Below, piece after piece: positions 19,776 through 54,473 of a stretch of 64,000 bases of DNA. The translations under genes were made by a program, and so were the position numbers. Location of the stretch: NCBI GenBank assembly GCA_038134595.1, contig JAYPVM010000006.1, positions 67,440-131,439 of the forward strand, written 5' to 3'. Every line of letters starts with the position of its first letter. Within the stretch, counting starts at the first letter, position 1. Source of the DNA: Pseudomonadota bacterium (GTDB taxonomy: Bacteria; Bdellovibrionota_C; UBA2361; OMII01). Below the pieces are notes generated by a model. That model worked only from the letters and a program-made list of their open reading frames with translations, had not been told where the DNA came from and made no database searches.

Positions 19776-22100
19776 CTACCACCCAAGCACAGCAAGCGTC
19801 CTATCTCCAATGGCCTCCTGGTAAACACCCCCTTCGAGCCCACGCTGTTCATCTAATCGCTTAAAATCACCAGCATCCAATGAAAAGAGCGTAAGAGTTG
19901 GATTGTGAAAACCATAGGTACCAGCAGGCGCCTCAAACTGCCTAATAACAGGCACTTCGGAGAAGATCTCTCTAAACCGCTGTCGCAGTATCGCTGCACT
20001 TTCTGGCTGACTGAAATAACGGTCATAAAACAAGCTCGACAACACAAGGTATTGAGCTCCGGAACTTCTTAATCGACCGACGGACAGATCCTGTATGATC
20101 CTCGCCCTCGGAATGTGTTCGACATTAAAAAATTTACCGTGAAAGTTTGGACAATACGGCTTCCAGTCCATTAAGACTTTTGAATCGTGTGGCAAGTTAT
20201 GGATCATCCAAGTTGCTAATTGCTCTCGAGTATCATTTGTTACATCTCTTGCCAACAAAACGCTTCGGGCAAGTGGAAACGAACCAAGAACGAATATAAA
20301 AAGAACCGCACCATACCTTAGCAATACCGTTCTATCCCTTCTCAACTGCTCACAAACGACAGCTATACCGATCGCCATAAACGGCAAACAGGGCAGAATA
20401 TACCTCTCCGGCTGGGGAGCTGGTTTAGCCTTAACAAACTCTGCGGGAAGATAAAATAAAAGTGCCATGGAAACGACAATTAGGTCCTCTAGCTTCGACC
20501 TCCTGATCAGAAATCCCAAAGCAACACAACTGACAACCGTAATTGGCAGGGTCATTCCCGGTCGGATACTTCGCCACAAATGATAACACCAAAGCTGAGA
20601 CCACGCGGAAATAGTTACGGTATGACCGGTCTGCATGTGTCTTGATTCAGAATGAAAATCTTTCAAGAATTTAGCCGAATTCAGCACAGAGAACGGCGTA
20701 GTTGCTATAAAGCCCAACGGCGCTACACATACTGAGAAGATAGCAATAGCGAGCCACCGCTTGTCAGGTTTAATACTACGGGAGCTAATCCACGGCGCAG
20801 TAGCAGGTATACCCACCATTAGTAGTCCGGAATACTTAACTCCCGCTGATGCTCCCGCAAGAAGTCCTGCAACGACCAAAAGCCATCGTTTGTTTGTTTG
20901 TACAGCGACTAATGTTGTCCACAAACACATCAAGACGACAAATGTCAACAAAGCGTCTTCCTTCATATACCGACTACATGTGACATGTAGCGGAAACGTC
21001 GCGAGCAAGAGTGCTCCTATAGCTCCGACCATCCGAGAATATAACCGCGTCCCGATTAAATAGACTAAAATTACAGAGCCAATCCCAGCCGTTGCACTAA
21101 CGAGCCTCCCTGCCAAAAAGGCAGTTTCCCGAAAGCTACCTTCTACGCCCAACCAATGCAGAAGCACATTTACCGCATAGCTTGAATAAAGAAGTAGAGA
21201 GGGATGTAAAAAATACTGTGGATCAAGGGTATTTTGATCCACCATCCTCATAATGGCATTAACTTTTGGCACCTCATCTGGATGGAAATTTGCCGGCAAG
21301 CCGAATGTAATTCCATATAATCTGAGCGAGGCCGCCACTACCACCGCAAGTAGGAGCACACCCATAGAGACAATTCTTGAATCCTCATCTTCCTGCACCC
21401 TTCTCTGAAGGTATCCCCACATACCAACTAGCATCCCCAAGCTAAGAACCATCACAGGCGGAAATTTAGACGGGGCGACATCCGAGAAAAAAACGAGCCC
21501 GCCCGCCAATATCCCTATTGCGGTAAGGGCAACAAGGCTTGAGAGCCCTGATTTTTGCGCAACATACCGAGTGAAAAATCCAAGTCCAGCAAAAAACCCC
21601 GCAACCACTGCAATCAACCACCAACCAACAAGTGGAAGGCCTATCCACGAGTTAATAGAAACCGACGCTAGGTGTGTTCCCAATAATCTTGGCTTACTCT
21701 CTGTTACGGGCTGAAAGAATCGAAGAGACTTAATCTTTAGATGCAGAGGACTGCATCCAAATGGCAACGACAGCTTAATTGGTGCTGCCCCGCCGATTTC
21801 AAAGTTTTTCCAGGAGCCATCGCAAACAGAAATTGCAACCAGAGGGACCTCATTTGCTCCAGGCCGAATATGGCCGAAATGCAACGCGATACGATTCCCG
21901 ATCCCAGCAAAATTCGATACCGCAATACGAAGTTCCTCTCCTACCCATCCATCATGAGTAATGTCCCCCTTGCTTATTCCCTGCAAATCATGTCCAGAAA
22001 ACGAATGTTTCGAAAGTGTGCCAGTAGAGGCAATCGAAGCAAGCATGCTAACGACGAAAATAAGGGCGAGTCGACTCAAGCGACCCATTTTGACCTGCAT
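19776..22100 (-). CDS. GT-C superfamily glycosyltransferase (GT39/GT83, ArnT/PMT-like) with extra N- and C-terminal extracytoplasmic domains
   Basis: 774 aa polytopic protein. The first extracytoplasmic loop carries an acidic HPDE motif in a GT39/ArnT-like context (LYGITFGLPANFHPDEVP). More than 10 TM helices. A C-terminal domain of about 200 aa is soluble. Confidence 0.65.
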   Translation of the reverse strand: MQVKMGRLSRLALIFVVSMLASIASTGTLSKHSFSGHDLQGISKGDITHDGWVGEELRIAVSNFAGIGNRIALHFGHIRPGANEVPLVAISVCDGSWKNFEIGGAAPIKLSLPFGCSPLHLKIKSLRFFQPVTESKPRLLGTHLASVSINSWIGLPLVGWWLIAVVAGFFAGLGFFTRYVAQKSGLSSLVALTAIGILAGGLVFFSDVAPSKFPPVMVLSLGMLVGMWGYLQRRVQEDEDSRIVSMGVLLLAVVVAASLRLYGITFGLPANFHPDEVPKVNAIMRMVDQNTLDPQYFLHPSLLLYSSYAVNVLLHWLGVEGSFRETAFLAGRLVSATAGIGSVILVYLIGTRLYSRMVGAIGALLLATFPLHVTCSRYMKEDALLTFVVLMCLWTTLVAVQTNKRWLLVVAGLLAGASAGVKYSGLLMVGIPATAPWISSRSIKPDKRWLAIAIFSVCVAPLGFIATTPFSVLNSAKFLKDFHSESRHMQTGHTVTISAWSQLWCYHLWRSIRPGMTLPITVVSCVALGFLIRRSKLEDLIVVSMALLFYLPAEFVKAKPAPQPERYILPCLPFMAIGIAVVCEQLRRDRTVLLRYGAVLFIFVLGSFPLARSVLLARDVTNDTREQLATWMIHNLPHDSKVLMDWKPYCPNFHGKFFNVEHIPRARIIQDLSVGRLRSSGAQYLVLSSLFYDRYFSQPESAAILRQRFREIFSEVPVIRQFEAPAGTYGFHNPTLTLFSLDAGDFKRLDEQRGLEGGVYQEAIGDRTLAVLGW

Positions 22101-22126
22101 GAAAACCTCTCTCTCTCTTATTCTCT

Positions 22127-24136
22127 CTAGCTTGATACCTTGCGCGCTTCAAGCATCTTTGCGACAACTACTGGCTCGCTTCCGCTATTTTGTCGGTGCC
22201 TGTTCATGGCCACTCGAATCGGGTCCTGCGGCGGAGACCAGCCTCGGCTACGAAGATAGGATGTTAACTCCTTAACGTCGACAATAATAGAGGTCTTATC
22301 TACAAACACGACGAAAGGATACTGCTCCTTATCGACCCCTTTTCTTGGTAACGAGTAGAAAAGCAATTCCTCAGACGGACGCGACGTCAACTCCTTCACA
22401 ACTTTGTCTAATGGCGGAAAGTACGTTGCCTTACTGAGCTTCTCTGGGCGAAAATCCTCTCGTCGGTATACAAAGTGGGTAACCCCTTCGGGAGCAAGGA
22501 GCGTGACTAGCTCCTGCAATGAAGTCGCATAATGAGCTCGAAGCGAAATCTCGCTCCGACGCCTCATCTCCAGATTGTAGCGTGGATAGAACGGCTGTGA
22601 AGTCTCGGTAGTCACCAATGCTCTTCTTATCCCAAACAATTGCATTCCATCACAGTGAGTCGGGTGACAAGCTATCAAGGAATCAGACGGAGTATTGTCT
22701 CGAATCCACTCATACATCTTTCCGCGCTTGTAAAAGTGATAATTGAAATTAGCATCACCCTGCAAGCCATTACCTGAGCAGAGAAAAACCACAGCTCCCA
22801 CGACGGTAAAACTAATAAGAGCACCCCAACAGCTACGAAGCGTATCAGCTTTACCCCCTGTATTGCAGAGATTGGCTTCTCGCTTTTCCCGTTTCACGAA
22901 CAAGCGCCAAATACCGACACAGAAAGCGGTAATAAGAACAACGACCATCGGGATTTGCAAATGTCTATCTGGCACAAACAGCCAAAAAGCCACAAGGCGA
23001 GACAAGAAATACGTACATGACGCAGCCAAACCAAAAAAGAAAACTTCTGCTGGAAAGACCAATCGCCTTCTCAGTGCGCCAGCTCCGGCTATCAGCAGTA
23101 AACTACCGGGGACAGCCCACCACATAATCTCTCGCAAGAAAACCGGAGGTCGAAAAAGCCGTCCGATAAACGCCTGCAAGCCAAAAATTTTATACTCCGA
23201 TAAGATGGGCCTTAGCGGCAGAAACGGAAATCTACCAAAAGGCTTTTGGAATTCAGGCATACTAGCCGCTTCCGAAAAAGACACCATTTGACCAATATGC
23301 GCTGGTCGCTGAACAACTAGCAGAGCAACAAACACAAAAAGCGGGACAAGTGCTATTGATTGCACCAACACCTTACGGGCGGTTCTTCGCTCCTCCCCTC
23401 GACTACTAACGGCTCGCCATATCAAAAGAAAACCGTATGCCACACCAACAATCAAAGCCCCTGGCGGATTCAACATCGAACCAACAAGAATTGTTCCCAA
23501 ACAAGCCCAATGATTTCGCGTGGTCGCAAAGTAGAGAAACGCCGTAAAAATCGCCGGCGTCCAACCGCGCGGCAACCCCCCCGTCATCCGCTGCATAGTG
23601 TTGCGAGAGTGTAAAAGCCAAACAACTGATAGAAAAGCTGGCACCATGGCATTGTTAGACAGCCGCCGCACCGCCAAAAACAGAAATGTTACTGCAAGAC
23701 CCACTTGCAACAACATAATCCAATGCCCCGTCATGATCGGGTTTTTGGTAGCCAATGTTACGACAAAACTAAGCCAATAGTGTACGGGCGGTAAACATCC
23801 CCGCATAACTTCAGCAATCAAGTCATTACTAAATCTCCCGGGATACAGAGCATCATACAAAGGAAAAGTCTGCTGTGTCGCATCGTCGGTAGTCCATAGG
23901 GGATGAAACCACCGTCCCTGTAAACTAGTTAAAAATGCCGCAGCGTAGTACACAAGCAAGGCGCCGGACAAAAGAATCGGGGTGGTAACATACCTACGCA
24001 CCCAACCCCACAAATACATTATGCCATTAACTCGGTCGTGATTGCCGGCCGCTCCCTGCGCCGTCTTAACTGCATGGGCAGGCGATTGAGAAGAAAGAGC
24101 ATCTTCGGAGACGTTAACTGGACTACTCTGCATCAA
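22127..24136 (-). CDS. Large polytopic membrane protein with a C-terminal soluble domain, function unknown (possible second GT-C-type transferase)
   Basis: 669 aa with more than 10 predicted TM helices, followed by a hydrophilic C-terminal domain of about 230 aa. It is 26 nt upstream of, and co-directional with, the GT39-like gene. Confidence 0.5.
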   Translation of the reverse strand: MMQSSPVNVSEDALSSQSPAHAVKTAQGAAGNHDRVNGIMYLWGWVRRYVTTPILLSGALLVYYAAAFLTSLQGRWFHPLWTTDDATQQTFPLYDALYPGRFSNDLIAEVMRGCLPPVHYWLSFVVTLATKNPIMTGHWIMLLQVGLAVTFLFLAVRRLSNNAMVPAFLSVVWLLHSRNTMQRMTGGLPRGWTPAIFTAFLYFATTRNHWACLGTILVGSMLNPPGALIVGVAYGFLLIWRAVSSRGEERRTARKVLVQSIALVPLFVFVALLVVQRPAHIGQMVSFSEAASMPEFQKPFGRFPFLPLRPILSEYKIFGLQAFIGRLFRPPVFLREIMWWAVPGSLLLIAGAGALRRRLVFPAEVFFFGLAASCTYFLSRLVAFWLFVPDRHLQIPMVVVLITAFCVGIWRLFVKREKREANLCNTGGKADTLRSCWGALISFTVVGAVVFLCSGNGLQGDANFNYHFYKRGKMYEWIRDNTPSDSLIACHPTHCDGMQLFGIRRALVTTETSQPFYPRYNLEMRRRSEISLRAHYATSLQELVTLLAPEGVTHFVYRREDFRPEKLSKATYFPPLDKVVKELTSRPSEELLFYSLPRKGVDKEQYPFVVFVDKTSIIVDVKELTSYLRSRGWSPPQDPIRVAMNRHRQNSGSEPVVVAKMLEARKVSS

Positions 24137-33739: not shown

Positions 33740-33931
33740 ACTCTGGTAGCGACTAGACGCATAGGTTCTACGCGTCCACGCCGACAGTAACAACCGAAAA
33801 TCACAATGCTTTCAGTTATTTACCAAAACTCCCAGTAAACAACAAGGGCATGAAAGTTACGCCTTGACAATAACTTGCTCTTTGTATAGTTGCATCCTAA
33901 ACTGCGTCTTACGATTAATGTAGGATTGTCA

Positions 33932-35962
33932 ATGGTCTTTAACAGCTCGATTTCAGGACAAAGCTCCCACCGAGATGGTGGAAGGAGCAGCGATCGGCAA
34001 CAATCAAACGAGCGATCAATAAGCGACTTGCAGCTTAGTCGCCTCGCGTTCTTTACACCCGCTTCTGTAGTCGAACGTCAGCTAAAAATAGATTTTACAA
34101 CCACACTAGACGGCGACATAGCCCTTGATCGTCCAATTAGACTTTTTGCAAAAAATGCAACGGGCGTAACCGTGGCCCAGTACACTGTAGAGAACCTCCA
34201 GTTGCTCGACGAGAGTGTCAAAAAAACGCTATCGGATAAAATCAAAAGCTGCCGTAGATTAGAACTATCGGTCGAGACTCTTGCTCAAACCCTTCTAGGC
34301 CTTACGGAACACGACAATCGAATACAATGGAGCACAGAATCGCTCTATCCTGGAGCGAGGAAGCCTCTGCGGGAACTCCGTCCGTGCACTCCCTCTCTTG
34401 CCGAGTTTTTGCAAAATCCGACATGCCTCGAAAAAGCCTTCTATTCCATTCGTAAGACTGGGCATACAGAAGAGAAGCTTACAGCAGTAATGGATACAGA
34501 TGCTCAGACAATCACCTTTACTCTTTGCTCAGAAAACCTACCACACTGGAGCCCCTCTGAGCACAAAAATCAACGCGTCGTAGTTTCTTGTTCATCACTC
34601 GACGACAGATCTTCCGATACGAATCCGCAAGACGTTCTGGCTCCAATTGTATGGCAAGCCATGGAGGCGTTTTGGAATACCGGAGCAACAGGTCTCACTA
34701 GATATCTGTTTAGAGCCTCTAAAGACAACAAGGACACAAGCCCCCCCGGAATACAAGTGCGAGTACAGGACTTTTCTTTTTACGGAAAAAGCAGTTCAGG
34801 AGCCTATGTATCATTTGAGGGGTCATCTCAAGTCGCGCAAGTTACCCTAACACAAGAACCCCTGCTATCCCCTTTAAGTAAAAAACCAGCTTCTGGAAGT
34901 GGGCAATGGATTTTTGTAAATGATTCAAAAACGTCTCGTACTACCGCTAGCTCCGCTGAGAACACAATGTTAAGAGAAATCGGCACTGCGGTGACCAAGC
35001 TCATGCACTCACGAGGCGAGAGCTCCCTAGAAGAGGTATTTGCGACACTAACACTGGCGGCTCGCTCTGAGGTGTTCTTTCGACCAGACACTTCTGCCGT
35101 GGTAGAACCAGAGGTTTCCACGTATCTCGCAAAACTTGTAAATACGCGGGTATTACACTCCTGGGAAAGACCCTCTATTCCAGAGTTAATAAATTTTCTA
35201 GAGGGAACAAAAAGCCTCCAAATAATACTTACAGAAGACCCTGCTACACCCTCTCGCTTTCCATTTAACGCTCTCACTATTGATAAGTTCGTCGACGGCC
35301 GCACGCGACTCTCTCTCGTTAATAATCTCGGAGCACACTGCGAAGCTCAATTCTGCCGCCTCTCTTCAGATGATATGCGCCTCATCCTGAAAACCTTCGA
35401 TCAACAATTGGAAGAAGGAGTCCCCTCGTTGAGCAGAAGACGTTTGCAGTTGGTCTTGGAAACTTTGAAAAGCAGAAACACAGAAAACTGGGTGTTATTC
35501 TCCGGAACTTCATCAATCCCCGCAGCCGATGATACAGACGCGCACCAACTACTCGACGCCGCACTGCCAGTGATCAATCGTTACCTAGCTATGCGAACGA
35601 TTCGAGAAAAAACGAGCTATTCAGAGAAAAGCAATACAGCAGTTGTTTATCCCCAAAATGGCGTCATAGAGGTAAGCCTAGGAGAGGATTACCATCCCTA
35701 TCAATTAAGAGTGAGATTACAGCATAACTCGCTAACGCAAATAGAGATAATTCCCGACGAGTCCTCCTCCGGCCGGTTTAAAAAGCCGCGAAGGTATGCT
35801 TCTCGAAGTGGGATTACGTTAAACACTCCCGAATCAGATAGGTTTTTCGAATCTACACTCAAACATTTCTTTTCACTTGTCAGCAACACGACCGGGAGCC
35901 TTGAATTCGGCAATTCTGAGCTTCGTAGATTTCTAGACAGGCATTTTCAGGGCCCGCAGTGA
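33932..35962 (+). CDS. Large orphan hypothetical protein (677 aa)
   Basis: Long uninterrupted ORF with AGGA SD 6 nt before the ATG at 33932. The ORF track starts at TTG 33890. I recognise no motif. It is mostly hydrophilic and lies 190 nt downstream of the NYN gene. Confidence 0.6.
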   Translation: MVFNSSISGQSSHRDGGRSSDRQQSNERSISDLQLSRLAFFTPASVVERQLKIDFTTTLDGDIALDRPIRLFAKNATGVTVAQYTVENLQLLDESVKKTLSDKIKSCRRLELSVETLAQTLLGLTEHDNRIQWSTESLYPGARKPLRELRPCTPSLAEFLQNPTCLEKAFYSIRKTGHTEEKLTAVMDTDAQTITFTLCSENLPHWSPSEHKNQRVVVSCSSLDDRSSDTNPQDVLAPIVWQAMEAFWNTGATGLTRYLFRASKDNKDTSPPGIQVRVQDFSFYGKSSSGAYVSFEGSSQVAQVTLTQEPLLSPLSKKPASGSGQWIFVNDSKTSRTTASSAENTMLREIGTAVTKLMHSRGESSLEEVFATLTLAARSEVFFRPDTSAVVEPEVSTYLAKLVNTRVLHSWERPSIPELINFLEGTKSLQIILTEDPATPSRFPFNALTIDKFVDGRTRLSLVNNLGAHCEAQFCRLSSDDMRLILKTFDQQLEEGVPSLSRRRLQLVLETLKSRNTENWVLFSGTSSIPAADDTDAHQLLDAALPVINRYLAMRTIREKTSYSEKSNTAVVYPQNGVIEVSLGEDYHPYQLRVRLQHNSLTQIEIIPDESSSGRFKKPRRYASRSGITLNTPESDRFFESTLKHFFSLVSNTTGSLEFGNSELRRFLDRHFQGPQ

Positions 35963-37794: not shown

Positions 37795-38748
37795 TTAAGA
37801 GTGTGTGTTTGTGTCATACGCAACTGCAAGTAAGACATCCTGCACGTCCATCGGCCAGTGAAGAAGCTGATACGACGATTGCTCAACGATGTTCCTTGCA
37901 CTATCTTCCCAACGCTTTCGTTCTTCATCTCTTTGTGTGTTTTCTCCTGAGTGTTGCAAAACAATTAACTGCAGGGCGTCCAATTCTTTAAGGTATGTCG
38001 CTCCTTTCTTGCTTAAGCGTCTAGCAAGCTTCAGAGCCTTTTCTCCACTCTCGAAATCACCCTTTGCAATTGCTGTTAAACTCAAAACAAACTGGACCAT
38101 ACCACTATCTCTTACTGAGCGTTTCGCGGCAGCCTGTTGCAACAAAAAGTTATGTACTTGCTCAATCTGATTTAATGCGAGCAGCAAAATTCCATGATAA
38201 GCCACTTGCTCAACATCTTCTGACTGATGAAGCGCCTCGTATGAATAACACAACGCCTCTTGCTCCTCTCCGCTTACGAAAGCCAGATTGGCAATAGATC
38301 GCGCCAGTAGTGTTGCTTGCTCTCGATTATCAACCTCGTCAAATCGTCGATATGCTCCCTTCAACAAAGCTCGTGCCTGCACAAAATTACCCTCTTGTCT
38401 CTCGATATCTGCGAGGACAATCATGATATCCGGTCGTGGGCCTGACGACTTTCTTACACTCTCAATAACCTGCCTTGCTTCCAACAACCGACCCTGCTGG
38501 CTTAGGACCACAGCAAGGTTAAATTGCACGGCAGAGTTTGTTGAATCCAGCCAAGCAGCTTTCCGCAGTTGCCCCTCAGCATCCAAGAGTCGTCCCCGAC
38601 CAGCCGAAGCAACTGAATCAACAAGAAGGCCTGAAAGAATCAATTCTTCCGTCACAATCGACTTTGAGACACGATAGTCTCGTGAATGTGCACAGCCAAA
38701 ACAAATCGCAGTCATTACTGCTATTGCAAAATATCTAAACCGCGTCAT
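37795..38748 (-). CDS. TPR-repeat lipoprotein
   Basis: Lipobox (AICFGCAHS) followed by multiple TPR-like repeats. It is 12 nt downstream of, and co-directional with, the HAD::UbiA gene. Confidence 0.7.
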   Translation of the reverse strand: MTRFRYFAIAVMTAICFGCAHSRDYRVSKSIVTEELILSGLLVDSVASAGRGRLLDAEGQLRKAAWLDSTNSAVQFNLAVVLSQQGRLLEARQVIESVRKSSGPRPDIMIVLADIERQEGNFVQARALLKGAYRRFDEVDNREQATLLARSIANLAFVSGEEQEALCYSYEALHQSEDVEQVAYHGILLLALNQIEQVHNFLLQQAAAKRSVRDSGMVQFVLSLTAIAKGDFESGEKALKLARRLSKKGATYLKELDALQLIVLQHSGENTQRDEERKRWEDSARNIVEQSSYQLLHWPMDVQDVLLAVAYDTNTHS

Positions 38749-38760: not shown

Positions 38761-40233
38761 TTATAACCCTAAGCGCGCTGCGGTAAAGATTAGAAGCCCA
38801 AGAAGCCCCACGACATAAGTACCTACGTCTCGCAACGCAAATACAAGCGGATCATCATGCACCAGGCCCCGGCGCGCTAACAACCAAACACGACTAATCC
38901 AATACAACATGAGAGGACATGCCAACCAAATCATCTTCGGACTTTGATACAACGCCACTACCTCATTGCTACTGACATACAAAACTAGAACCAACGCTGC
39001 TATGTAACCACTCGCCGAACCGAATGAAGATACTTGTTCCATATCTCCTACCCAATAGCCCCTGCCCCAGGTCCTTTTTTCATTGCGCTGCTGAAGAGTC
39101 AGAAGTTCAGAAAAACGCTTAACGCAGGCAAGACTTAAGAAAAGAAACATCGACACACCGAGGAGCCATTGTGACAATGGTATTTCTGTAGCCACTCCGC
39201 CTCCGACGATTCGAATAGTATAAAGCATTGCCAATAAGATAATATCAACCAGAACTATAGCCTTTAAACGAAAAGAGTATGCAGTTGTAATCAGCAGATA
39301 GACCAACAATAATCCAACAAAGTGAGAGTGAATCTGCCAAGCAATACCGAACGCTGATACAAATAAAAGCGGAGCTAAACAAATTGCATATACTAACGGG
39401 AATCTACCAGCCGCACATGGGCGTTTCTTCTTTCTCGGATGCTGTCTATCTGACGCAAGATCAAGCAAATCGTTTACGATGTACACTCCCGATGCGCATA
39501 ACGAGAAAGCGACCGCGGCAAGCACGCTTCGTCCCACAACCATCGGTTCTAACCAACGATGTGCTAAAAACATCGGCGCAAATATCAAAAAGTTCTTCAA
39601 CCATTGATGGACTCTGAGGACTCGAAGGATAACGCTCCACGATGAGCGTACCACCTCAATCATTCGTGCACCTGGAAAAGCCTTTGAAATAGTCTCTGCA
39701 TATCCTATTGACGAGACCACCGCTGTTACCTCACAAGCCTCTCGCCACACTGCTATATCTGCCTCTGAATCACCAACATACTCCCAATCGTTTTGCCCAA
39801 GATGCTCCTTTATAGCCTCTACTTTCTTACTCCCTTTGCAGTTACGCGACACTGAAGAGCCAATCGAATGGGTCACAAAATTAAAACGGTCGGCAACAAG
39901 AGCAACTAATCGCTCATCAGATGCAGATGCAAGAATAATCCTCCGGCCCGATGCTGCTTGCGTTTCCAAGTATGAGACGACTCCCTCATGAACTGGCATC
40001 AAATCAACTCGCAATCCCTCCGCCCTGCCAGCCAATTCAGATTTTAGTGTAGCGCGTCCTCGAAATAGCCACCAAGGCAGTAGGAACAAAATCAGTGGAT
40101 TTCTCTTTAAAGCCAGTAAAAGGCTCTCATACAAGAGATCTGTTGCCAAAATTGTTCCATCAACATCAGCGACAACAACCGCAGGTCTACCACTCATCTT
40201 TTCCTGAACCATAGTCCTCTCTGAAAACGCCAT
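38761..40233 (-). CDS. HAD-phosphatase::UbiA-family fusion; C-terminal domain resembles decaprenyl-phosphate 5-phosphoribosyltransferase (Rv3806c-like DPPR synthase)
   Basis: N-terminal HAD motif I (VVVADVDGTILATD) in a domain of about 200 aa. The C-terminal 8-TM UbiA domain has the Asp-rich motif NDLLDLASDRQHPRKKKRP, which resembles the NDxxDxxxDRxHPxKxxRP signature of DPPR synthases. Start candidates are 40233, 40212 and 40197. The ORF extends to 40398. Confidence 0.75.
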   Translation of the reverse strand: MAFSERTMVQEKMSGRPAVVVADVDGTILATDLLYESLLLALKRNPLILFLLPWWLFRGRATLKSELAGRAEGLRVDLMPVHEGVVSYLETQAASGRRIILASASDERLVALVADRFNFVTHSIGSSVSRNCKGSKKVEAIKEHLGQNDWEYVGDSEADIAVWREACEVTAVVSSIGYAETISKAFPGARMIEVVRSSWSVILRVLRVHQWLKNFLIFAPMFLAHRWLEPMVVGRSVLAAVAFSLCASGVYIVNDLLDLASDRQHPRKKKRPCAAGRFPLVYAICLAPLLFVSAFGIAWQIHSHFVGLLLVYLLITTAYSFRLKAIVLVDIILLAMLYTIRIVGGGVATEIPLSQWLLGVSMFLFLSLACVKRFSELLTLQQRNEKRTWGRGYWVGDMEQVSSFGSASGYIAALVLVLYVSSNEVVALYQSPKMIWLACPLMLYWISRVWLLARRGLVHDDPLVFALRDVGTYVVGLLGLLIFTAARLGL

Positions 40234-40957
40234 TTCACGACTTTTTTCTGGTCGTGTGTATCGCACACAAATCAACGTCATCAAACGCAAGGCTTGAGTC
40301 GCGCAGTAGCCCTTCAAATCCAATACGCCTAAACACACACCGCAATCATATCTGTGGGGCACACCTACAATACTATCGAAGTAAGAGGATGAACACACCT
40401 CTTAATACGAAGAGCGGTAGAAACATCGGTCTGGCTAGCTCACAATCCACCGTAAATATTTAGAAACCCACTTAAGCAGCACCAAAAACCAATGAGATAC
40501 TATCATGTTACAGACCATTTTCACTAGCAGTCACACTAGAGAACGACTCAAAACATCGTCGCAAGCTAAAACAGTACACCAAAAGCATCTGCACAGTCTT
40601 CCCCAAGTCACGCCAAAATGAGTCGCAAGATCGAAGAAATACAACAGCGGTTACGCTAATTTTAACATCGCTCTGGGTCATATTTTGGCTAGTAGTAAGT
40701 GCTCCGATACGTTAAAATCAGGCGACAGGTTTCAACACTGTCGACAAGGCATGCCTTTGGATAGTAGAGCTAAAACTCATTTGAGATAATCAAGAGAGAG
40801 TTCTTACTCACTGTCAACGCTGGCTCAATTTTAGGCCGTAAGTTTTTGCCTCGGATCGCGCCATTAGATGGCAGAGTCCTCAAAAACAGGCTCGGTCCTT
40901 GAGGACAGGATCGTGATATGGCAGGTACAGGCGAGACTACCCGCATATTGAATTATC

Positions 40958-42307
40958 ATGGACGAACTGATTACAAGGATGGTACACAAGCATAACGGCA
41001 CTCAATTTTCATCGTGGGGCAAGTATCCAATACCAGTTGACCAATCGGCGGCTTTCCTTTGCTCGTCGTCATCGGAGCTTCCTCAAACAGATACTGGTCA
41101 ATTGCTCCTTCCTTATGGACTCGGCAGAAGCTACGGAGATAGCTGCATTAACAGTGGGCATACCGTTCTCCCCTGTTCGCGGCTAAACAACTTCCTTGCT
41201 TTCGATCCACACTCAGGAGTATTACGAGCTGAAGCTGGTGTCAGCTTAGCAGATATCTTGGAGGTCTTTGTGCCACGGGGATGGTTTCTACCCGTCTCTC
41301 CCGGAACTAAATTTGTCACACTCGGAGGAGCTGTGGCCAACGACATCCACGGCAAAAACCATCATGTTGCAGGAACCTTCGGCTGTCATGTGAGGCGATT
41401 TGAACTAATTAGATCCTCGGGAGAGCGATTTATATGCTCTCCGGAAGAGAACCCCGAACTCTTTCGAGCAACAATTGGTGGCATGGGGCTAACTGGATTG
41501 ATAACGTGGGTAGAGCTCACCCTCATCCCGATACATAGCCCCTACCTTGATACAGCTACCATCAAGTTTCGCAATCTCGATGAATTCTTTGACATCTCGG
41601 CCGAATCTGATTCCACGTATGAGTACAGCGTCTCGTGGGTCGATTGCACCTCTGAGGGCGCCAACCTCGGTCGCGGACTATTCATGGCTGGCAATTTTTC
41701 GGAGAAAACCAAGAGAAGACAGCCCCCCAAGCTCTCAATCCCCTTTCCCTGCGAAGCTCCCTCTTGGCTACTCAACTCTCTCTTCATGCGGTCTTTTAAC
41801 ACGCTCTACTACAACAAACAAAGAACACGCAAAGTCGAAGCTTTGACCCACTATGAGCCATTTTTCTATCCCCTTGATGCAATACTGAACTGGAACCGTA
41901 TGTATGGCAGGCGTGGTTTTTTTCAGTACCAATTCGTCATTCCATTCACAAATGACCGCCGTGTTATCAAAGACATCTTCACCCGCATTACAAAATCAAA
42001 GAGAGCATCTTTTTTAGCAGTGCTTAAAACATTTGGCGACATTCCATCCCCTGGCTTGCTTTCCTTTCCCAGAAAGGGCGTCACATTAGCTCTAGATTTT
42101 CCAAATCAAGGGAAGCCAACTCTTGAGCTCCTAACAGACCTTGATACTATCGTTAAGTCTGTGGGTGGATCTATTTATCCAGCTAAAGATGCCCGAATGA
42201 GCCCCGAAATGTTCAAGCTTTCGCATCCATACCTTGACGAATTCCTAAAATGGAAAGATCCTCAATTTTCATCCACTCTATGGAGACGTGTAATGGAGTC
42301 CGCATGA
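40958..42307 (+). CDS. dprE1: DprE1-like FAD-dependent decaprenylphosphoryl-beta-D-ribose 2'-oxidase
   Basis: FAD_binding_4 N-terminus. GRSYGD, PGT..VTLGGAVANDIHGKNHH.AGTFG.HV and GFFQYQFVIP align closely, by eye, with Mtb Rv3790. The position of the BTZ-target Cys387 (NICVDFP) reads TLALDFP here, so Cys becomes Ala. Confidence 0.85.
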   Translation: MDELITRMVHKHNGTQFSSWGKYPIPVDQSAAFLCSSSSELPQTDTGQLLLPYGLGRSYGDSCINSGHTVLPCSRLNNFLAFDPHSGVLRAEAGVSLADILEVFVPRGWFLPVSPGTKFVTLGGAVANDIHGKNHHVAGTFGCHVRRFELIRSSGERFICSPEENPELFRATIGGMGLTGLITWVELTLIPIHSPYLDTATIKFRNLDEFFDISAESDSTYEYSVSWVDCTSEGANLGRGLFMAGNFSEKTKRRQPPKLSIPFPCEAPSWLLNSLFMRSFNTLYYNKQRTRKVEALTHYEPFFYPLDAILNWNRMYGRRGFFQYQFVIPFTNDRRVIKDIFTRITKSKRASFLAVLKTFGDIPSPGLLSFPRKGVTLALDFPNQGKPTLELLTDLDTIVKSVGGSIYPAKDARMSPEMFKLSHPYLDEFLKWKDPQFSSTLWRRVMESA

Positions 42308-43041
42308 AGAGAATACTCGTAATAGGTGCCACATCAGGTATCGCCACGGCTGTCGCGCGACAGTATGCTCAAGACGGCGTCGCTTTATGCCTGTTAGGAA
42401 GAAATCACGAGAAACTCACAGCTCTAGCAACTGACCTCTCAGTGAGAGGCGCCTCGGAGGTGAGCACTTTTTGTTTTAATGCTTCGGACATCGAGCAACA
42501 CGCCCAAACATTAGAGAACGCCCAAATGCAATTTGGGCACTTTGACTACGCCCTAATAGCGCACGGGAACCTACCCGATCAAAAAGAATGTGAGCGCTCC
42601 TTTGAGCAAACTCATACAGAGCTTACAACAAATTTACTGAGCCCTATTGCATTGCTAACATGGCTGGGCAATTACTTTGAGGAACGCAAGGGTGGAACTA
42701 TAGCGGTCATCACATCGGTTGCTGGAGATCGCGGTCGTCAAAGCAACTATATCTATGGAACCGCCAAGGGTGCTCTTTCTCGATACCTACAGGGCCTAAG
42801 AAACAGATTAGCCCCCAGTGGGGTAGCAGTTGTTGATATCAAGCCCGGGTTTGTTGACACACCAATGACTCAGCATTTGAAAAAGGGGGCGCTTTTCGCC
42901 TCTCCAGAAAAAATAGCTGTGGGCATTAAGAAAGCCATAGAGCGCGGGACATCAGAGATTTACCTTCCTCGCTTCTGGTGGGTGATAATGTCCATAATTA
43001 AGACAATCCCAGAATGCATCTTCAAAAGACTAAAACTCTAA
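42304..43041 (+). CDS. dprE2: DprE2-like SDR (decaprenylphosphoryl-2-keto-ribose reductase)
   Basis: The start ATG at 42304 overlaps the dprE1 stop as ATGA. It has an SDR Rossmann motif (ILVIGATSGIATAV), a catalytic region (SVAGDRGRQSNYIYGTAKGAL) and a C-terminus (IMSIIKTIPECIFKRLKL) that resemble Rv3791. Confidence 0.8.
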   Translation: MKRILVIGATSGIATAVARQYAQDGVALCLLGRNHEKLTALATDLSVRGASEVSTFCFNASDIEQHAQTLENAQMQFGHFDYALIAHGNLPDQKECERSFEQTHTELTTNLLSPIALLTWLGNYFEERKGGTIAVITSVAGDRGRQSNYIYGTAKGALSRYLQGLRNRLAPSGVAVVDIKPGFVDTPMTQHLKKGALFASPEKIAVGIKKAIERGTSEIYLPRFWWVIMSIIKTIPECIFKRLKL

Positions 43042-43250: not shown

Positions 43251-43754
43251 TCACATCTCCAAGAGGAATTGAATTTGCTTTACGAGCAAGCTCTCCGCAC
43301 GAAACTTTTCACAGAACATATCCGCCCCACGTTCTAGTGCCACGAACTCTAGGTCATCTCCACAAGCAGTCAACATGATGACCGGAATTTCTCCACCGTC
43401 CCACTCGGTACCCTTACCTCTTACCGCCTTGAGAAATTCAAAGCCATCCATCTCGGGCATCTTGTAATCTGATACAATAACATCACACTGCTGTGCCTCC
43501 AATACTCCCAGTGCCTCCGTGGCAGATCCTGAGACCGTCACTTGATAACCTGCTCTCTCAACAATCCTCTTTAAAAATTGCAACTGATCTGGATCGTCAT
43601 CAACCACAAGAACATTATGGTCATGTGGAGTAGGTCGTCGCGAAATTTGATCCTCAGTTTCATTCCATGTAGCCATCATGAGAGCCTCCGTATCACTATA
43701 GTCATCTGGTATTTTGCAGCCTCGCTTCTCTCTAGAATCACGATTCCGACGCAT
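43251..43754 (-). CDS. Single-domain response regulator (CheY-like receiver)
   Basis: Receiver motifs: VLVVDDD, the phospho-acceptor context DVIVSDYKMPEMDG, and a conserved Lys region. No cognate kinase is present in the window. The start may be internal, at the MMATW codon 43679. Confidence 0.7.
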   Translation of the reverse strand: MRRNRDSREKRGCKIPDDYSDTEALMMATWNETEDQISRRPTPHDHNVLVVDDDPDQLQFLKRIVERAGYQVTVSGSATEALGVLEAQQCDVIVSDYKMPEMDGFEFLKAVRGKGTEWDGGEIPVIMLTACGDDLEFVALERGADMFCEKFRAESLLVKQIQFLLEM

Positions 43755-44222: not shown

Positions 44223-45110
44223 TCACCGGATAAGAACATCTAGTAGCGTGCAAAGAAAAAAAATGACGCTGGCCAATCCATTTCTTAAGAAAAATATCGG
44301 TTCAATTTGAGCATTTCGATCTCGCGCCACTGAGATGTGCTGTGTCGCTATTAAACCCGCAAAGAATACTATACCGGCCCAACACACAGCTCCCACATCA
44401 AACCAAACACCAGCTACAGACATAGCGATAACGGTACCAGCATGGAACACGCCGGCGCATAGTAAGGCTCGCCTGCGCCCCAAACGTGCCGGGACACTCT
44501 GTAATCCTCTTGCTCTATCAAACTCGATATCCTGCAGAGCATATATGATATCAAACCCTGCCACCCAAGTTAACACAGCTATCATGAGAGGCACCGGTCG
44601 CCAACTAAACTCACCAGCAATCGCTATCCAAACTCCACCCGGTGCCAATGCCAACGACAAGCCTAACACAGCGTGGCAAAGAATTGAGAAACGCTTCAAA
44701 TAGGAATATCCGAGTAGTATCATCAACACTGGGACAGAGAGATATCCACACAGCAAACTTAGAGCCGATGCAGATGCAATAAAAACAAGTGAAAAAAATA
44801 CGACGAGCATTCCGACCTCTACAGAGCTTACCGTTCCTTGAGGTATCTCTCGCATCGCTGTGCGAGGATTTTCGGCGTCAAGCTTTTGATCTACAAGCCG
44901 ATTAAACGCCATAGCGGCAAAGCGTGCAGAAACGACGCACATCACAATCAAAACAATCTGACCAACCGATATTGAAAATTCATACCATAAGAGGGCAACT
45001 ACCGATAGAGCAAACGGCATCGCAAAAATAGTGTGCGAAAACTTCACGAGCCTCCCCCACACCACTATGCGATCTCCGGTCTTGGTAAATACTGCTCCAC
45101 GCTTATCCAT
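44223..45110 (-). CDS. UbiA-family aromatic prenyltransferase (4-hydroxybenzoate polyprenyltransferase / MqnP-like)
   Basis: About 8 TM helices with the Asp-rich motif variant NRLVDQKLDAENPRT and a second motif near YALQDIEFD. The ORF track extends to 45173. The likely start is the MDKRG codon at 45110. Confidence 0.75.
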   Translation of the reverse strand: MDKRGAVFTKTGDRIVVWGRLVKFSHTIFAMPFALSVVALLWYEFSISVGQIVLIVMCVVSARFAAMAFNRLVDQKLDAENPRTAMREIPQGTVSSVEVGMLVVFFSLVFIASASALSLLCGYLSVPVLMILLGYSYLKRFSILCHAVLGLSLALAPGGVWIAIAGEFSWRPVPLMIAVLTWVAGFDIIYALQDIEFDRARGLQSVPARLGRRRALLCAGVFHAGTVIAMSVAGVWFDVGAVCWAGIVFFAGLIATQHISVARDRNAQIEPIFFLRNGLASVIFFLCTLLDVLIR

Positions 45111-45303
45111 AGGGGTCCCCAAGACGATCATACACATAAAGACAGCTGTTTCAATAGAACCCGTCTTTGTCATGTGCGGGCCGATAGTGAATGCCTAAAT
45201 GGATTTTGTAGCGTCTATTGCTGTTTATATGCCAAATCGGCCGAAAAAATACGTAACGATAGACTCAGATGCTGGATTTTTGTAACATATTGGTGGTGCA
45301 TCC

Positions 45304-46056
45304 ATGAGACTAAAGACGACGCCACAAAATATATCTGATCACGCTACTATGACTTCCCTAAACCACAGGCCACACAGCACTCAAGAGGTGCAAAGGATGT
45401 TCGACAGCATTGCTCCGACCTATGACATTCTAAACCTGATGTTAAGTGGCGGAAGTCACAGGAGGTGGGAATCAAAGCTCGTAGACTCACTACCAGAAGC
45501 GACCTCGGGAATATGCCTCGATATCTGTACAGGCACAGGCGCGTTAATACCCAGATTGGCACGAAGGTTTTCATCTGTTGTCGGTCTTGATGTTTCTCCA
45601 AATATGCTCTCTATCGCAAAACGAAAGTATGGCAGTATGCATAAGGTTTCTTTCATAGAAGCCGATGCCCAAAAGCTACCGTTTTCTGATAACTGCTTTG
45701 ACCGAATCACTGTTGCATACGGGGTTCGAAACTTACCGGACTATCGTACTGGCCTTAAAGAGATCAAACGAGTTCTTAAGCCAGGAGGTGTGGTGGGCAT
45801 TCTCGAGTTTGGGCAACCAAGCGTTCCGGTATGGCGTCAGGCGTTCAATCTCTATTCCAGAACACTTATGCCACTACTGGGTCGAATCGTCTCAGGAGAC
45901 TCCCATGCCTATAGATATCTTCCGAAAACAGCCGCCGCATTTCCATGCGGAAAAGCATTCGAAAATGATTTAATCGCCTGTGGCCTCTCTCCGACTAAAA
46001 CCCACTCATGTTTGGGAGGCATTGCATATATTTATGTGGCTAACAAAAGGACGTAG
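45304..46056 (+). CDS. ubiE: Demethylmenaquinone/ubiquinone C-methyltransferase UbiE/MenG
   Basis: UbiE-specific N-terminus (VQRMFDSIAPTYDILNLMLSGG) and a SAM motif (LDICTGTG). Confidence 0.85.
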   Translation: MRLKTTPQNISDHATMTSLNHRPHSTQEVQRMFDSIAPTYDILNLMLSGGSHRRWESKLVDSLPEATSGICLDICTGTGALIPRLARRFSSVVGLDVSPNMLSIAKRKYGSMHKVSFIEADAQKLPFSDNCFDRITVAYGVRNLPDYRTGLKEIKRVLKPGGVVGILEFGQPSVPVWRQAFNLYSRTLMPLLGRIVSGDSHAYRYLPKTAAAFPCGKAFENDLIACGLSPTKTHSCLGGIAYIYVANKRT

Positions 46057-46064
46057 AGAAAGAG

Positions 46065-54391: not shown

Positions 54392-54473
54392 GTTGGCTTC
54401 TCGAGTCGGAATCCTGGAGAAAATATCCCTATCCTCTACCTGGCCCGCATTCTCTTCATATAATGAAAGTAAT

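What the first reader, a model, noticed from the sequence alone, without database searches (positions are those of the whole stretch)
38761..43041. Complete polyprenyl-phospho-D-arabinofuranose (DPA-like) donor pathway in a diderm, non-actinobacterial context
Three adjacent genes reconstruct the four-step route that makes decaprenyl-P-arabinose in mycobacteria. A UbiA-family enzyme with a DPPR-synthase-type Asp-rich motif (equivalent to Rv3806c) is fused to a HAD phosphatase. The phosphatase stands in for the Rv3807c dephosphorylation step. Divergently transcribed, a DprE1-like FAD oxidase and a DprE2-like SDR are coupled by an ATGA overlap. Judged by eye against the mycobacterial proteins, the similarity is strong: GRSYGD, DIHGKNHH.AG.FG.HV and QYQFVIP in DprE1, and the YG[ST]AKGAL active-site block plus C-terminal helix in DprE2. 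The rest of the window is a Gram-negative-type backbone (lpxD, tatBC, SPOR, SLT). This implies a D-arabinofuranosylated glycoconjugate (glycoprotein, LPS/LOS or exopolysaccharide) outside the Corynebacterineae. That situation is known only sporadically: Pseudomonas aeruginosa PA7 pilin arabinosylation, and the rhizobial Nod-factor genes noeC/H/O/P. The residue aligned with the benzothiazinone-target cysteine of DprE1 appears to be Ala. That predicts intrinsic BTZ insensitivity.
Basis: partly seen in the sequence, partly recalled or inferred. Interest (0 to 1): 0.85.

Follow-up and report, generated by a model that had tools for sequence, protein, structure and literature searches.

The report
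Lipid-linked D-arabinofuranose donor gene cluster
Three adjacent genes in an uncultured Bdellovibrionota-like bacterium very probably make a lipid-linked D-arabinofuranose sugar donor for a surface glycan, but this gene set is already described and is widespread in Gram-negative bacteria, so it is an ordinary new example.

Summary
Window 38761-43041 carries a HAD-phosphatase/UbiA fusion gene on the minus strand. A DprE1-like FAD oxidase and a DprE2-like SDR are transcribed divergently from it, coupled by an ATGA overlap at 42304-42307. Each protein's best solved-structure match is the mycobacterial enzyme (Rv3806c 4e-32, DprE1 7e-72, DprE2 8e-26). The Cys387-equivalent residue is Ala378.

The pathway reading is well supported. 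The novelty claim is not. Kelly et al. (PNAS 2024, PMC11127046) showed biochemically that such a fusion makes undecaprenyl-P-ribofuranose. They report DprE1/E2 homologues wherever the glycan contains Araf.

- NCBIfam has a curated model for the fusion (NF006088; 574 bits, cutoff 351).
- The fusion occurs in at least 578 species genomes across many diderm phyla and on 105 plasmids.
- 57 of 80 fetched loci carry E1 and E2 beside it.
- Ala at the Cys387 position is the family norm (57 of 65).

Features specific to this lineage:
- No flippase or GT-C transferase lies next to the cluster.
- A TPR lipoprotein is conserved beside it in 12 of 12 Bdellovibrionota/Oligoflexia loci.
- Two tandem GT-C-fold proteins lie 15-19 kb away; their donor is unknown.

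Verdict: new member of a known kind; acceptor glycan unknown.

The parts
38761..40233 (-). Gene for a bifunctional HAD phosphatase / UbiA-type polyprenyl-phosphate 5-phosphoribosyltransferase (PRP-PPPRS fusion), 490 aa from Met56. The open frame extends to a GTG at 40398 (545 aa).
   Evidence: NCBIfam NF006088 scores 574 bits against a cutoff of 351, covering both domains. The PDB match to Rv3806c (8j8j) has E 4.3e-32. Homologues are 481-490 aa. A hydropathy scan finds 7 or more transmembrane segments in the C-terminal half.
39751..40176 (-). N-terminal cytoplasmic HAD (phosphoribose phosphatase) domain. It carries the DVDGT nucleophile motif (D23/D25 in 490-aa numbering), LASASD and GDSEAD.
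   Evidence: Pfam HAD PF12710, E 6.9e-10. D23, D25, G26, T27, K137 and D159 are invariant in 18 homologues. The role follows the C. youngae ORF15 N-domain, where a D18A mutant accumulates the 5-phosphate product (PMC11127046).
38869..39582 (-). UbiA-fold membrane domain. It carries the DPPR-synthase motif NDLLDLASDRQHPRKKKRP (N254, D255, D258, D262) and the loop-IV motif VKRFSEL (K372, R373, E376).
   Evidence: Pfam UbiA, E 5.3e-22. The alignment to Rv3806c pairs it with VNDVRDVEADREHPTKRFRP and GKRYAEL. These residues are invariant in the family. The equivalent residues are needed for ORF15 activity.
40234..40957 (.). Divergent intergenic region of 724 nt between the fusion gene and the DprE1-like gene. 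It presumably holds the two promoters.
   Evidence: Sequence read. No Rfam match. No convincing promoter or terminator excess. Only short ORFs of 69 aa or less, none membrane-like. The spacer length varies from about 150 to 560 nt in relatives.
40958..42307 (+). DprE1-like FAD-dependent polyprenyl-phospho-ribofuranose 2'-oxidase, 449 aa, with no signal peptide.
   Evidence: NCBIfam NF053785 scores 358 bits (curated cutoff 500); the next family scores 33 bits. PDB matches to M. smegmatis and M. tuberculosis DprE1 have E 7e-72 and 1e-69 over residues 30-433. The equivalents of H132, K134, Q336, K367 and K418 are invariant in the aligned residues of 65 family members.
42089..42091 (+). Codon for Ala378, the residue aligned with the benzothiazinone-reactive Cys387 of M. 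tuberculosis DprE1.
   Evidence: The same column is Ala in 57, Cys in 6, Ser in 1 and Thr in 1 of 65 family members.
42304..43041 (+). DprE2-like short-chain dehydrogenase/reductase (2'-keto reductase), 245 aa. Its start overlaps the DprE1-like stop codon (ATGA at 42304-42307).
   Evidence: NCBIfam NF005489 (PRK07102) scores 316.6 bits against a cutoff of 267. The DprE2 model NF053786 scores 178 bits against a cutoff of 250. The best PDB match is DprE2 (21gq_C), E 8.3e-26 over the full length, against 1.8e-15 for the next SDR. The overlap is seen. The start follows the gene call. GATSGIA and YGTAK motifs are located.
37795..38748 (-). TPR lipoprotein, 317 aa, starting 12 nt after the fusion gene's stop codon. 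Probably co-transcribed. It is a lineage-specific conserved partner of unknown role.
   Evidence: TPR hits. The N-terminus reads ...AICFGC|A; homologues carry clear lipoboxes (LMGCA, LAGCA, LAACA). It lies next to the pathway genes in 12 of 12 Bdellovibrionota/Oligoflexia loci and in both gene orders.
19776..22100 (-). GT-C-fold glycosyltransferase, 774 aa (PMT_2/GT39-like). It has an N-terminal periplasmic beta-sandwich and an invariant HPDEVPK motif. It is only a candidate user of the lipid-linked donor.
   Evidence: Pfam PMT_2, E 2.2e-15. AF2 model pLDDT 81.9. Foldseek matches STT3/AglB/PglB, ArnT, AftD and Emb; the beta-sandwich weakly resembles CBM35. The family is related to the polytopic protein beside the operon in Oligoflexia MAGs (hhalign probability 95.9%, E 5.7e-9). 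It shares contigs with fusion homologues in relatives.
22127..24136 (-). Second GT-C-fold membrane protein, 669 aa, with an invariant WTTDD loop-1 motif. It lies immediately upstream of the 774-aa GT-C. Candidate only.
   Evidence: No Pfam hit for this protein itself. Homologues sporadically hit DUF6798, PTPS_related or Dpy19. AF2 model pLDDT 84.6. Foldseek matches STT3, DPY19, PglB, AftA and ArnT. The pair is conserved in L083 and L084.

Best explanation
The cluster is a cytoplasmic-face pathway that turns PRPP and a polyprenyl phosphate into polyprenyl-phospho-D-arabinofuranose. In a diderm the carrier is presumably undecaprenyl phosphate.

Steps:
1. [quoted passage not shown]
2. The fused N-terminal HAD domain removes the 5-phosphate, giving polyprenyl-P-ribofuranose.
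3. The DprE1-like flavoenzyme oxidises the 2'-OH to a 2'-keto intermediate.
4. The translationally coupled DprE2-like SDR reduces it with inverted stereochemistry, giving polyprenyl-P-Araf.

The donor must then be flipped to the periplasm. There a GT-C glycosyltransferase would attach Araf to an envelope glycan or glycoprotein. Neither the flippase nor the transferase is encoded next to the cluster here.

What is shown: the gene structure, the homologies, the motif conservation and the co-occurrence. What is inferred: every catalytic step, the lipid carrier, the arabino configuration of the product and the acceptor.
For: - Family and structure matches point to the DPA enzymes for all three proteins: NF006088 574 bits (above cutoff), the DprE1 model 358 bits, PRK07102 316 bits plus the DprE2 model 178 bits. 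PDB E-values are 4e-32, 7e-72 and 8e-26.
- Catalytic motifs are intact: HAD DxDGT; UbiA NDxxDxxxD and KRxxE; DprE1 H132/K134/Q336/K367/K418 equivalents; SDR YxxxK.
- The ATGA overlap couples the oxidase and the reductase.
- 57 of 80 loci from other species keep E1 and E2 beside the fusion gene.
- The window proteins are 44-52% identical to the Stenotrophomonas maltophilia cluster in L029.
- Published biochemistry covers the same architecture. C. youngae ORF15 makes polyprenyl-P-Ribf from PRPP, and its HAD domain removes the 5-phosphate. DprE1/E2 homologues accompany Araf-containing glycans in S. maltophilia and Rathayibacter (PMC11127046).
- P. aeruginosa pilin arabinosylation needs the PPPRS, DprE1 and DprE2 homologues (bioRxiv 10.1101/2020.04.19.049825).
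Against: - No enzyme assay or sugar analysis exists for this organism.
- The DprE1-like and DprE2-like proteins score below NCBI's curated equivalog cutoffs (358 against 500; 178 against 250). Orthology to the actinobacterial enzymes is therefore not formally met, and the stereochemical outcome is inferred.
- No flippase (MATE, SMR or GtrA type) and no GT-C lies within about 15 kb.
- The only GT-C candidates sit in an operon with Ugd and an SDR epimerase/dehydratase. That context suggests a glucuronate-derived donor instead.
- One close relative (L010) appears to lack the oxidase.
Confidence: 0.8

Rival explanations
1. The fusion protein makes polyprenyl-P-ribofuranose as proposed. The oxidase/reductase pair then yields a different end product, such as a retained 2-keto sugar, ribose recycled without inversion, or another pentofuranose, so the glycan does not contain D-Araf.
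For: - Both redox proteins fall below the curated DprE1 and DprE2 equivalog cutoffs.
- N385 of M. tuberculosis DprE1 is Thr and C387 is Ala in this family.
- Other systems diversify the pentose with other epimerases: ORF13 gives Xylf, and extra SDR epimerases follow E2 in Xanthomonadales loci.
Against: - DprE1 and DprE2 are by far the closest families and solved structures.
- Catalytic residues are invariant.
- Where structures are known, Gram-negative glycans whose loci carry DprE1/E2 homologues contain Araf (PMC11127046).
Confidence: 0.1
2. The three genes are neighbours without a shared pathway. The FAD oxidase and the SDR act on an unrelated alcohol or lactone substrate, and the UbiA fusion acts on its own.
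For: - The genes are divergently arranged here rather than in one operon.
- 8 fusion loci with full flanks lack E1 and E2, so the fusion can work alone.
Against: - Adjacency is kept in 57 of 80 loci across many phyla and in two different gene orders.
- The oxidase has no comparable similarity to lactone, cytokinin or alditol oxidases (33 bits or less; E 2e-7 or weaker).
Confidence: 0.05
3. The UbiA domain is an aromatic prenyltransferase of quinone or heme biosynthesis, given that menaquinone genes lie nearby, and not a phosphoribosyltransferase.
For: - A second UbiA gene (MqnP-like, 44223-45173) lies within 6 kb, together with UbiE and UbiX-like genes.
- JGI pipelines label homologues of the fusion '4-hydroxybenzoate polyprenyltransferase'.
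Against: - The fusion scores 42 bits or less on every quinone, heme or chlorophyll prenyltransferase model. It scores 574 bits on NF006088 and 130-155 bits on the DPPR-synthase models.
- Its only PDB relative is Rv3806c.
- The menaquinone UbiA is a separate, typical MqnP/UbiA protein.
Confidence: 0.02

Closest known systems
Three-component pentofuranose side-chain systems of Gram-negative glycans: Citrobacter youngae O1/O2 ORF15 PRP-PPPRS, plus a flippase and a GT136 GT-C. Araf variants with DprE1/E2 homologues occur in Stenotrophomonas maltophilia (Kelly et al., PNAS 2024, PMC11127046).
   Same: - The donor synthase has the same fused architecture, an N-terminal HAD phosphatase joined to a UbiA PPPRS, with the same catalytic motifs.
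- The same DprE1/E2-type epimerisation module is present.
- The cluster occurs in a diderm.
- The window proteins are 44-52% identical to an S. maltophilia cluster.
   Different: - No MATE or SMR flippase and no GT-C lies next to the cluster.
- It is not embedded in an O-antigen or capsule locus. It sits in a conserved core-genome block beside dnaB.
- A TPR lipoprotein is its conserved partner.
- The synthase gene is divergent from E1-E2 rather than colinear.
Mycobacterial decaprenyl-phospho-arabinose pathway (Rv3806c, Rv3807c, DprE1 Rv3790, DprE2 Rv3791).
   Same: - The chemistry has the same four steps.
- The best solved-structure matches of all three window proteins are these enzymes.
- The NDxxDxxxD motif and the DprE1 catalytic residues are conserved.
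   Different: - The phosphatase is a fused HAD domain, not a separate Rv3807c-type enzyme.
- Cys387 is Ala.
- The carrier is presumably C55 rather than C50.
- No Emb/Aft genes are adjacent.
- Scores fall below the actinobacterial equivalog cutoffs.
Pseudomonas aeruginosa Pa5196/PA7 type IV pilin arabinosylation (PsPA7_6246-6249 plus TfpW).
   Same: - It is a Gram-negative D-Araf donor pathway with PPPRS, DprE1 and DprE2 homologues acting in the cytoplasm.
- A TPR module is associated with the transfer step: TfpW has a periplasmic C-terminal TPR domain.
   Different: - The P. aeruginosa PPPRS lacks the HAD domain.
- That system includes a GtrA-like protein and the GT-C TfpW next to pilA.
- Here there is no pilA, tfpW or GtrA-like gene in the 64-kb window, and the TPR module is a separate lipoprotein.
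Azorhizobium caulinodans noeC/H/O/P (D-arabinosylation of Nod factors).
   Same: By recollection, it is a proteobacterial D-arabinosylation locus with DprE1/DprE2-type genes.
   Different: It was not compared here because no sequences were available to the tools. Its acceptor is a secreted lipochitooligosaccharide. Rhizobial plasmids do carry fusion homologues (36 Rhizobium records).

Membership tests
PRP-PPPRS fusion (NCBIfam NF006088 / PRK08238; C. youngae ORF15 type) | One polypeptide with an N-terminal HAD domain and a C-terminal UbiA domain, scoring above the curated whole-protein cutoff. | tested here: met
   574 bits against a cutoff of 351, aligned over profile positions 4-480 of 482. 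Pfam HAD and UbiA domains are both present.
PRP-PPPRS fusion (NCBIfam NF006088 / PRK08238; C. youngae ORF15 type) | HAD loop-I nucleophile motif DxDxT, and the UbiA motifs NDxxDxxxD and R/K..E. | tested here: met
   DVDGT at residue 23, NDLLDLASD at 254 and KRFSE at 372. All are invariant in 18 homologues and align to the Rv3806c motifs.
PRP-PPPRS fusion (NCBIfam NF006088 / PRK08238; C. youngae ORF15 type) | PRPP-dependent formation of polyprenyl-P-ribofuranose. | not testable with these tools
   This needs a membrane enzyme assay with PRPP and farnesyl-P or undecaprenyl-P, as in PMC11127046.
DprE1 (decaprenylphosphoryl-beta-D-ribose oxidase, NCBIfam NF053785) | Score above the curated equivalog cutoff. 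| tested here: not met
   358.2 bits against a cutoff of 500. It is nevertheless the top family by more than 300 bits, and the top PDB match (E 7e-72).
DprE1 (decaprenylphosphoryl-beta-D-ribose oxidase, NCBIfam NF053785) | FAD_binding_4 domain plus the catalytic and substrate residues H132, K134, Q336, K367 and K418. | tested here: met
   PF01565, E 1.8e-17. All five equivalents are conserved here and invariant in the aligned residues of the 65 family sequences.
DprE1 (decaprenylphosphoryl-beta-D-ribose oxidase, NCBIfam NF053785) | Cys387, the covalent benzothiazinone target. This defines drug sensitivity, not catalysis. | tested here: not met
   Ala378 aligns with Cys387. The column is Ala in 57 of 65 family members.
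DprE2 (NCBIfam NF053786) | Score above the curated equivalog cutoff. | tested here: not met
   178.2 bits against a cutoff of 250. The protein does pass the generic NF005489 (PRK07102) model, 316.6 bits against 267.
DprE2 (NCBIfam NF053786) | Classical SDR with a Gly-rich NAD(P) motif and catalytic YxxxK. Closest solved relative is DprE2 over the full length, including the C-terminal helix. | tested here: met
   GATSGIA at residue 8 and YGTAK at 151. 21gq_C matches at E 8.3e-26 over residues 20-262 of 263, against 1.8e-15 for the next SDR.
Three-component extracytoplasmic pentofuranose addition system (Kelly et al. 2024) | A dedicated flippase (MATE or SMR/GtrA type) encoded with the synthase. 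| tested here: not met
   No such gene was found in the window or in the intergenic spacer. Other lineages carry an LPG_synthase_TM protein directly upstream.
Three-component extracytoplasmic pentofuranose addition system (Kelly et al. 2024) | A GT-C glycosyltransferase that uses the lipid-linked pentofuranose, encoded with the synthase. | tested here: inconclusive
   None is adjacent. Two GT-C-fold proteins lie at 19776-24136. One is related to the GT-C beside the operon in Oligoflexia MAGs. Their donor cannot be inferred, and their operon also holds Ugd and an SDR epimerase/dehydratase.
TfpW-type pilin arabinosylation | A GT-C with a C-terminal TPR domain encoded directly downstream of the major pilin gene. 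| tested here: not met
   No pilin gene or TfpW-like protein was found in the window. The TPR protein here is a separate 317-aa lipoprotein without transmembrane helices.

The most novel reading that the evidence does not exclude
In this Bdellovibrionota lineage the Araf-donor pathway is not a variable serotype accessory. It is a fixed core-genome module with its own periplasmic TPR lipoprotein partner. It feeds the two lineage-restricted tandem GT-C enzymes 15-19 kb away. Together these would build a conserved arabinofuranosylated envelope polymer or glycoprotein, an arabinan-like structure in a diderm. The TPR lipoprotein would act as the acceptor-recognition subunit, the role played by the fused TPR domain in TfpW.
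Probability: 0.15. Interest if true: 0.55.

Novelty: new member of a known kind. Interest (0 to 1): 0.25.

Why it matters
The finding predicts that an uncultured Bdellovibrionota-like lineage decorates some envelope glycan with D-arabinofuranose. That sugar was long thought typical of mycobacteria. It is now known to be made through the same lipid-linked route in many Gram-negative bacteria.

The practical value is mainly in annotation. Thousands of 'UbiA family prenyltransferase', 'FAD-binding oxidoreductase' and 'SDR' gene trios could be named as a polyprenyl-P-Araf pathway.

It does not open a new question. The acceptor glycan, the transferase and the role of the conserved TPR lipoprotein remain unknown in this lineage. 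The Ala at the benzothiazinone-reactive position is the family norm and has no special significance.

Tried and rejected
1. The first genome-contig scan, with the single fusion protein, found no relatives. It had to be repeated with an alignment.
2. I looked for a flippase or GtrA-like small membrane protein in the window and in the 724-nt spacer. None was found.
3. I looked for an RNA element or an excess of promoters or terminators in the spacer. Rfam gave no match anywhere in the window, and the consensus scans were at background level.
4. I tested for direct sequence similarity between the two window GT-C proteins and the polytopic proteins flanking the cluster in 80 other loci. There were no tblastn or phmmer hits. 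Pairwise BLASTP was also negative. Only a profile-profile link between the GTC774 family and the Oligoflexia 512-aa family emerged; MP669 showed no link.
5. PDB sequence searches with both GT-C proteins found nothing. Fold searches gave only generic GT-C matches that do not discriminate donors.
6. I checked whether distant homologues of the GT-C pair lie next to the fusion-E1-E2 genes. They do not within 10 kb in L083 and L084.
7. A PADLOC scan of the four proteins for a defence-system link gave no hits.
8. The idea that the UbiA domain belongs to the neighbouring menaquinone genes was rejected on family scores.
9. A literature search for this pathway in Bdellovibrio found nothing relevant.

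Full report
**1. What is in the sequence**

The region contains the three genes described.

- **Fusion gene.** The minus-strand ORF 38761-40398 (545 aa) carries an N-terminal HAD domain and a C-terminal UbiA domain. Homologues are 481-490 aa, and a 94%-identical protein is 490 aa. The real start is therefore most likely Met56, at 40233.
- **FAD oxidase.** On the plus strand, after a 724-nt spacer, lies a 449-aa FAD_binding_4 protein at 40958-42307.
- **SDR.** Its ATG at 42304 overlaps the oxidase's TGA, forming ATGA. Independent gene calls on two metagenome contigs with the identical protein use this start.

**2. What the three proteins are**

*Fusion protein.* It scores 574 bits on NCBIfam NF006088 (PRK08238), against a cutoff of 351, aligned end to end. 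On three decaprenyl-phosphate phosphoribosyltransferase models it scores 130-155 bits. On every quinone, heme or chlorophyll prenyltransferase model it scores 42 bits or less. Its only relative in the PDB is M. tuberculosis Rv3806c (8j8j, E 4e-32). The alignment pairs NDLLDLASDRQHPRKKKRP with NDVRDVEADREHPTKRFRP, and KRFSEL with KRYAEL. The HAD nucleophile motif DVDGT and the other HAD motifs are invariant in the family.

*Oxidase.* It scores 358 bits on the DprE1 model, below the curated cutoff of 500. The next family scores 33 bits. It aligns over almost its full length to DprE1 structures at E 7e-72. The equivalents of H132, K134, Q336, K367 and K418 are invariant in the aligned residues of 65 family sequences.

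*SDR.* It passes the generic model PRK07102 (316 bits against 267). It scores 178 bits on the DprE2 model, against a cutoff of 250. Its best solved relative is DprE2 (E 8e-26, full length), ten orders of magnitude ahead of the next SDR.

*Cys387 position.* The residue aligned with Cys387 is Ala378.

**3. Does the trio co-occur elsewhere?**

A profile-based scan covered one genome per species. They come from Bdellovibrionota, Xanthomonadales (Xanthomonas, Stenotrophomonas maltophilia, Dyella, Rhodanobacter), Paraburkholderia, Myxococcota, Verrucomicrobiota, Chlorobiota, Planctomycetota, Nitrospira and others.

Among the 80 best loci:
- 57 carry both the oxidase and the SDR beside the fusion gene. 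49 are colinear (fusion-E1-E2), 6 are divergent as in the window, and 2 have another order.
- 8 more carry one of the two; 6 of these are cut by a contig end.
- 8 with full flanks carry neither. These presumably stop at ribofuranose or use another epimerase.

The family has 3,169 representatives of 50%-identity clusters at E 1e-30 or better. It also occurs on 105 plasmids, for example inside a polysaccharide locus of Jannaschia sp. CCS1.

The closest relatives are uncultured Bdellovibrionota MAGs: fusion 61-64%, E1 69-72%, E2 59-62% and DnaB 79-87% identical. The window therefore comes from that lineage. It is a core chromosomal region with ftsA/Q, murB/C, tatC, an lpxD-like gene, lepA, nuoF, dnaB, purD/H and menaquinone genes.

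**4. Comparison with published work**

Kelly et al. (PNAS 2024, PMC11127046) characterised Citrobacter youngae ORF15. It has the same architecture, an N-terminal HAD 'PRP' domain joined to a UbiA 'PPPRS' domain.
- Membranes with ORF15 convert PRPP plus farnesyl-P into farnesyl-P-ribofuranose.
- A mutant of the HAD nucleophile accumulates the 5-phosphate product.
- The NDxxDxxxD residues are required.

They describe a three-component scheme of synthase, MATE or SMR flippase, and GT-C transferase, and call it widespread. They state that loci for Araf-containing glycans (S. maltophilia, Rathayibacter) carry DprE1/E2 homologues. They also note that Xanthomonas has more elaborate versions.

P. aeruginosa pilin arabinosylation needs the PPPRS, DprE1 and DprE2 homologues plus TfpW, a GT-C with a periplasmic TPR domain.

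The statement that the situation is 'known only sporadically' is out of date. Ala at the Cys387 position is simply the norm in this family (57 of 65; Cys in 6).

**5. Features particular to this lineage**

- *No adjacent flippase or transferase.* Neither a flippase nor a GT-C lies next to the cluster.
- *A conserved TPR lipoprotein.* A 317-aa TPR protein starts 12 nt after the fusion gene. Its homologues carry clear lipoboxes. It is adjacent to the pathway genes in 12 of 12 Bdellovibrionota/Oligoflexia loci, both in the divergent order (E2-E1 <> fusion-TPR) and in the colinear order (fusion-E1-E2-TPR). dnaB is also syntenic, so some of this could be inherited gene order. Survival of the adjacency through a rearrangement suggests a functional link.
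- *A more typical locus in the distant clade.* In the more distant Oligoflexia clade the operon is preceded by a highly conserved 230-aa GT2. In some loci it is also preceded by a large double GT2 protein, Wzm/Wzt-type ABC transporter genes and a PMT_2 GT-C. It is followed by a 512-aa polytopic protein. That layout looks like a typical ABC-transporter-dependent polysaccharide locus with side-chain modification. None of those genes has a homologue in the window.
- *Two tandem GT-C proteins 15-19 kb away.* The window has two tandem polytopic proteins at 22127-24136 and 19776-22100. They lie upstream of Ugd and an SDR epimerase/dehydratase. Both are modelled with good confidence (pLDDT 84.6 and 81.9) and have the GT-C fold. 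The first has an invariant WTTDD motif. The second has an HPDEVPK motif and an N-terminal beta-sandwich with weak CBM-like matches. The pair is conserved in other Bdellovibrionota contexts. The 774-aa family is related to the 512-aa protein beside the operon in Oligoflexia (hhalign 95.9%, E 5.7e-9). That level of similarity is expected between many GT39/GT83-like GT-C enzymes. The Ugd/epimerase context equally suggests a uronic-acid-derived donor. They are candidates, no more.

**6. Mechanism**

Most likely (about 0.8), the cluster makes polyprenyl-P-D-Araf at the cytoplasmic face in four steps:
1. Phosphoribosyl transfer from PRPP.
2. 5-dephosphorylation by the fused HAD domain.
3. FAD-dependent 2'-oxidation.
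4. NAD(P)H-dependent 2'-reduction with inversion.

The gene structure, homologies, motif integrity and co-occurrence are shown here. The chemistry, the carrier lipid (presumably undecaprenyl-P), the arabino configuration, the flipping step and the acceptor are inferred.

Rivals are a different pentofuranose end product (about 0.1), unrelated functions of neighbouring genes (about 0.05), and an aromatic prenyltransferase role (about 0.02).

**7. Verdict**

This is a correct observation and a largely correct functional reading of a system that is already described, curated in family databases and very widespread. It is a new member of a known kind in a lineage where I found nothing published on it in the searched library. 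Interest is low to moderate. The open points are the acceptor and the role of the conserved TPR lipoprotein.

Noticed in passing
window 19776-24136 (minus strand), with 18182-19507 and 17190-18140: Two tandem GT-C-fold membrane proteins (669 aa with an invariant WTTDD motif; 774 aa PMT_2 type with an N-terminal CBM-like beta-sandwich) lie upstream of UDP-glucose dehydrogenase and an SDR epimerase/dehydratase. The pair is largely restricted to Bdellovibrionota-like genomes and is uncharacterised.
   Followed up: partly
window 37795-38748 (minus strand); L003-L011, L033, L036, L046, L075: A TPR lipoprotein is conserved beside the Araf-donor genes throughout the Bdellovibrionota/Oligoflexia loci, in two different gene orders. 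Its role is unknown. TfpW of P. aeruginosa carries a fused periplasmic TPR domain.
   Followed up: partly
window 38761-40398 (minus strand): The longest ORF, and the public gene call of 545 aa, probably over-extends the fusion gene by 55 codons. Homologues start at the equivalent of Met56 (40233).
   Followed up: yes
window 43251-43754 (minus strand): A receiver-only response regulator lies convergent to the DprE2-like gene and is syntenic in the closest relatives. There it is about 115-119 aa, so the 167-aa ORF here is probably also over-extended.
   Followed up: partly
window 44223-46667: A second, unrelated UbiA gene (MqnP/UbiA type) sits with UbiE/MenG-like and UbiX-like genes, forming a menaquinone (futalosine-type) gene group a few kb from the Araf cluster. 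It could be confused with the fusion's UbiA domain.
   Followed up: partly
L012, L017, L019, L021, L022, L024, L027, L030, L038, L059, L063, L069, L072, L077, L078, L081 (about 1 kb upstream of the fusion gene in most; downstream of E2 in L027): A protein of about 325 aa with 8-10 transmembrane segments, of the LPG_synthase_TM family (PF03706, the MprF flippase-domain family), sits directly upstream of the fusion gene in many Xanthomonadales and other loci. It is a candidate flippase for the lipid-linked pentofuranose and differs from the MATE/SMR types discussed in the literature.
   Followed up: partly
L010 9074-11425: One close Bdellovibrionota relative has the fusion gene and the DprE2-like gene directly adjacent but no detectable DprE1-like gene, despite full flanks.
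   Followed up: no
L011, L018, L033, L036, L046, L075 (about 9300-10000): A 230-248-aa soluble GT2 glycosyltransferase, 72-83% identical between MAGs, immediately precedes the fusion gene in the Oligoflexia clade. L033 and L046 also carry Wzm/Wzt ABC-2 transporter genes, and L033, L036 and L046 carry a double GT2 protein of about 800-836 aa.
   Followed up: partly
L022, L023, L041, L044, L047, L050, L055, L071, L077 (about 13460-14470): An extra NAD-dependent epimerase-family gene of about 314 aa follows the DprE2-like gene in Xanthomonadales and Paraburkholderia. This suggests further pentose diversification in those lineages.
   Followed up: no
window 33890-35962 (plus strand) and 53051-54559 (minus strand): Two large soluble proteins (690 aa and 502 aa) have no Pfam match. 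The second has only marginal NCBIfam matches.
   Followed up: no
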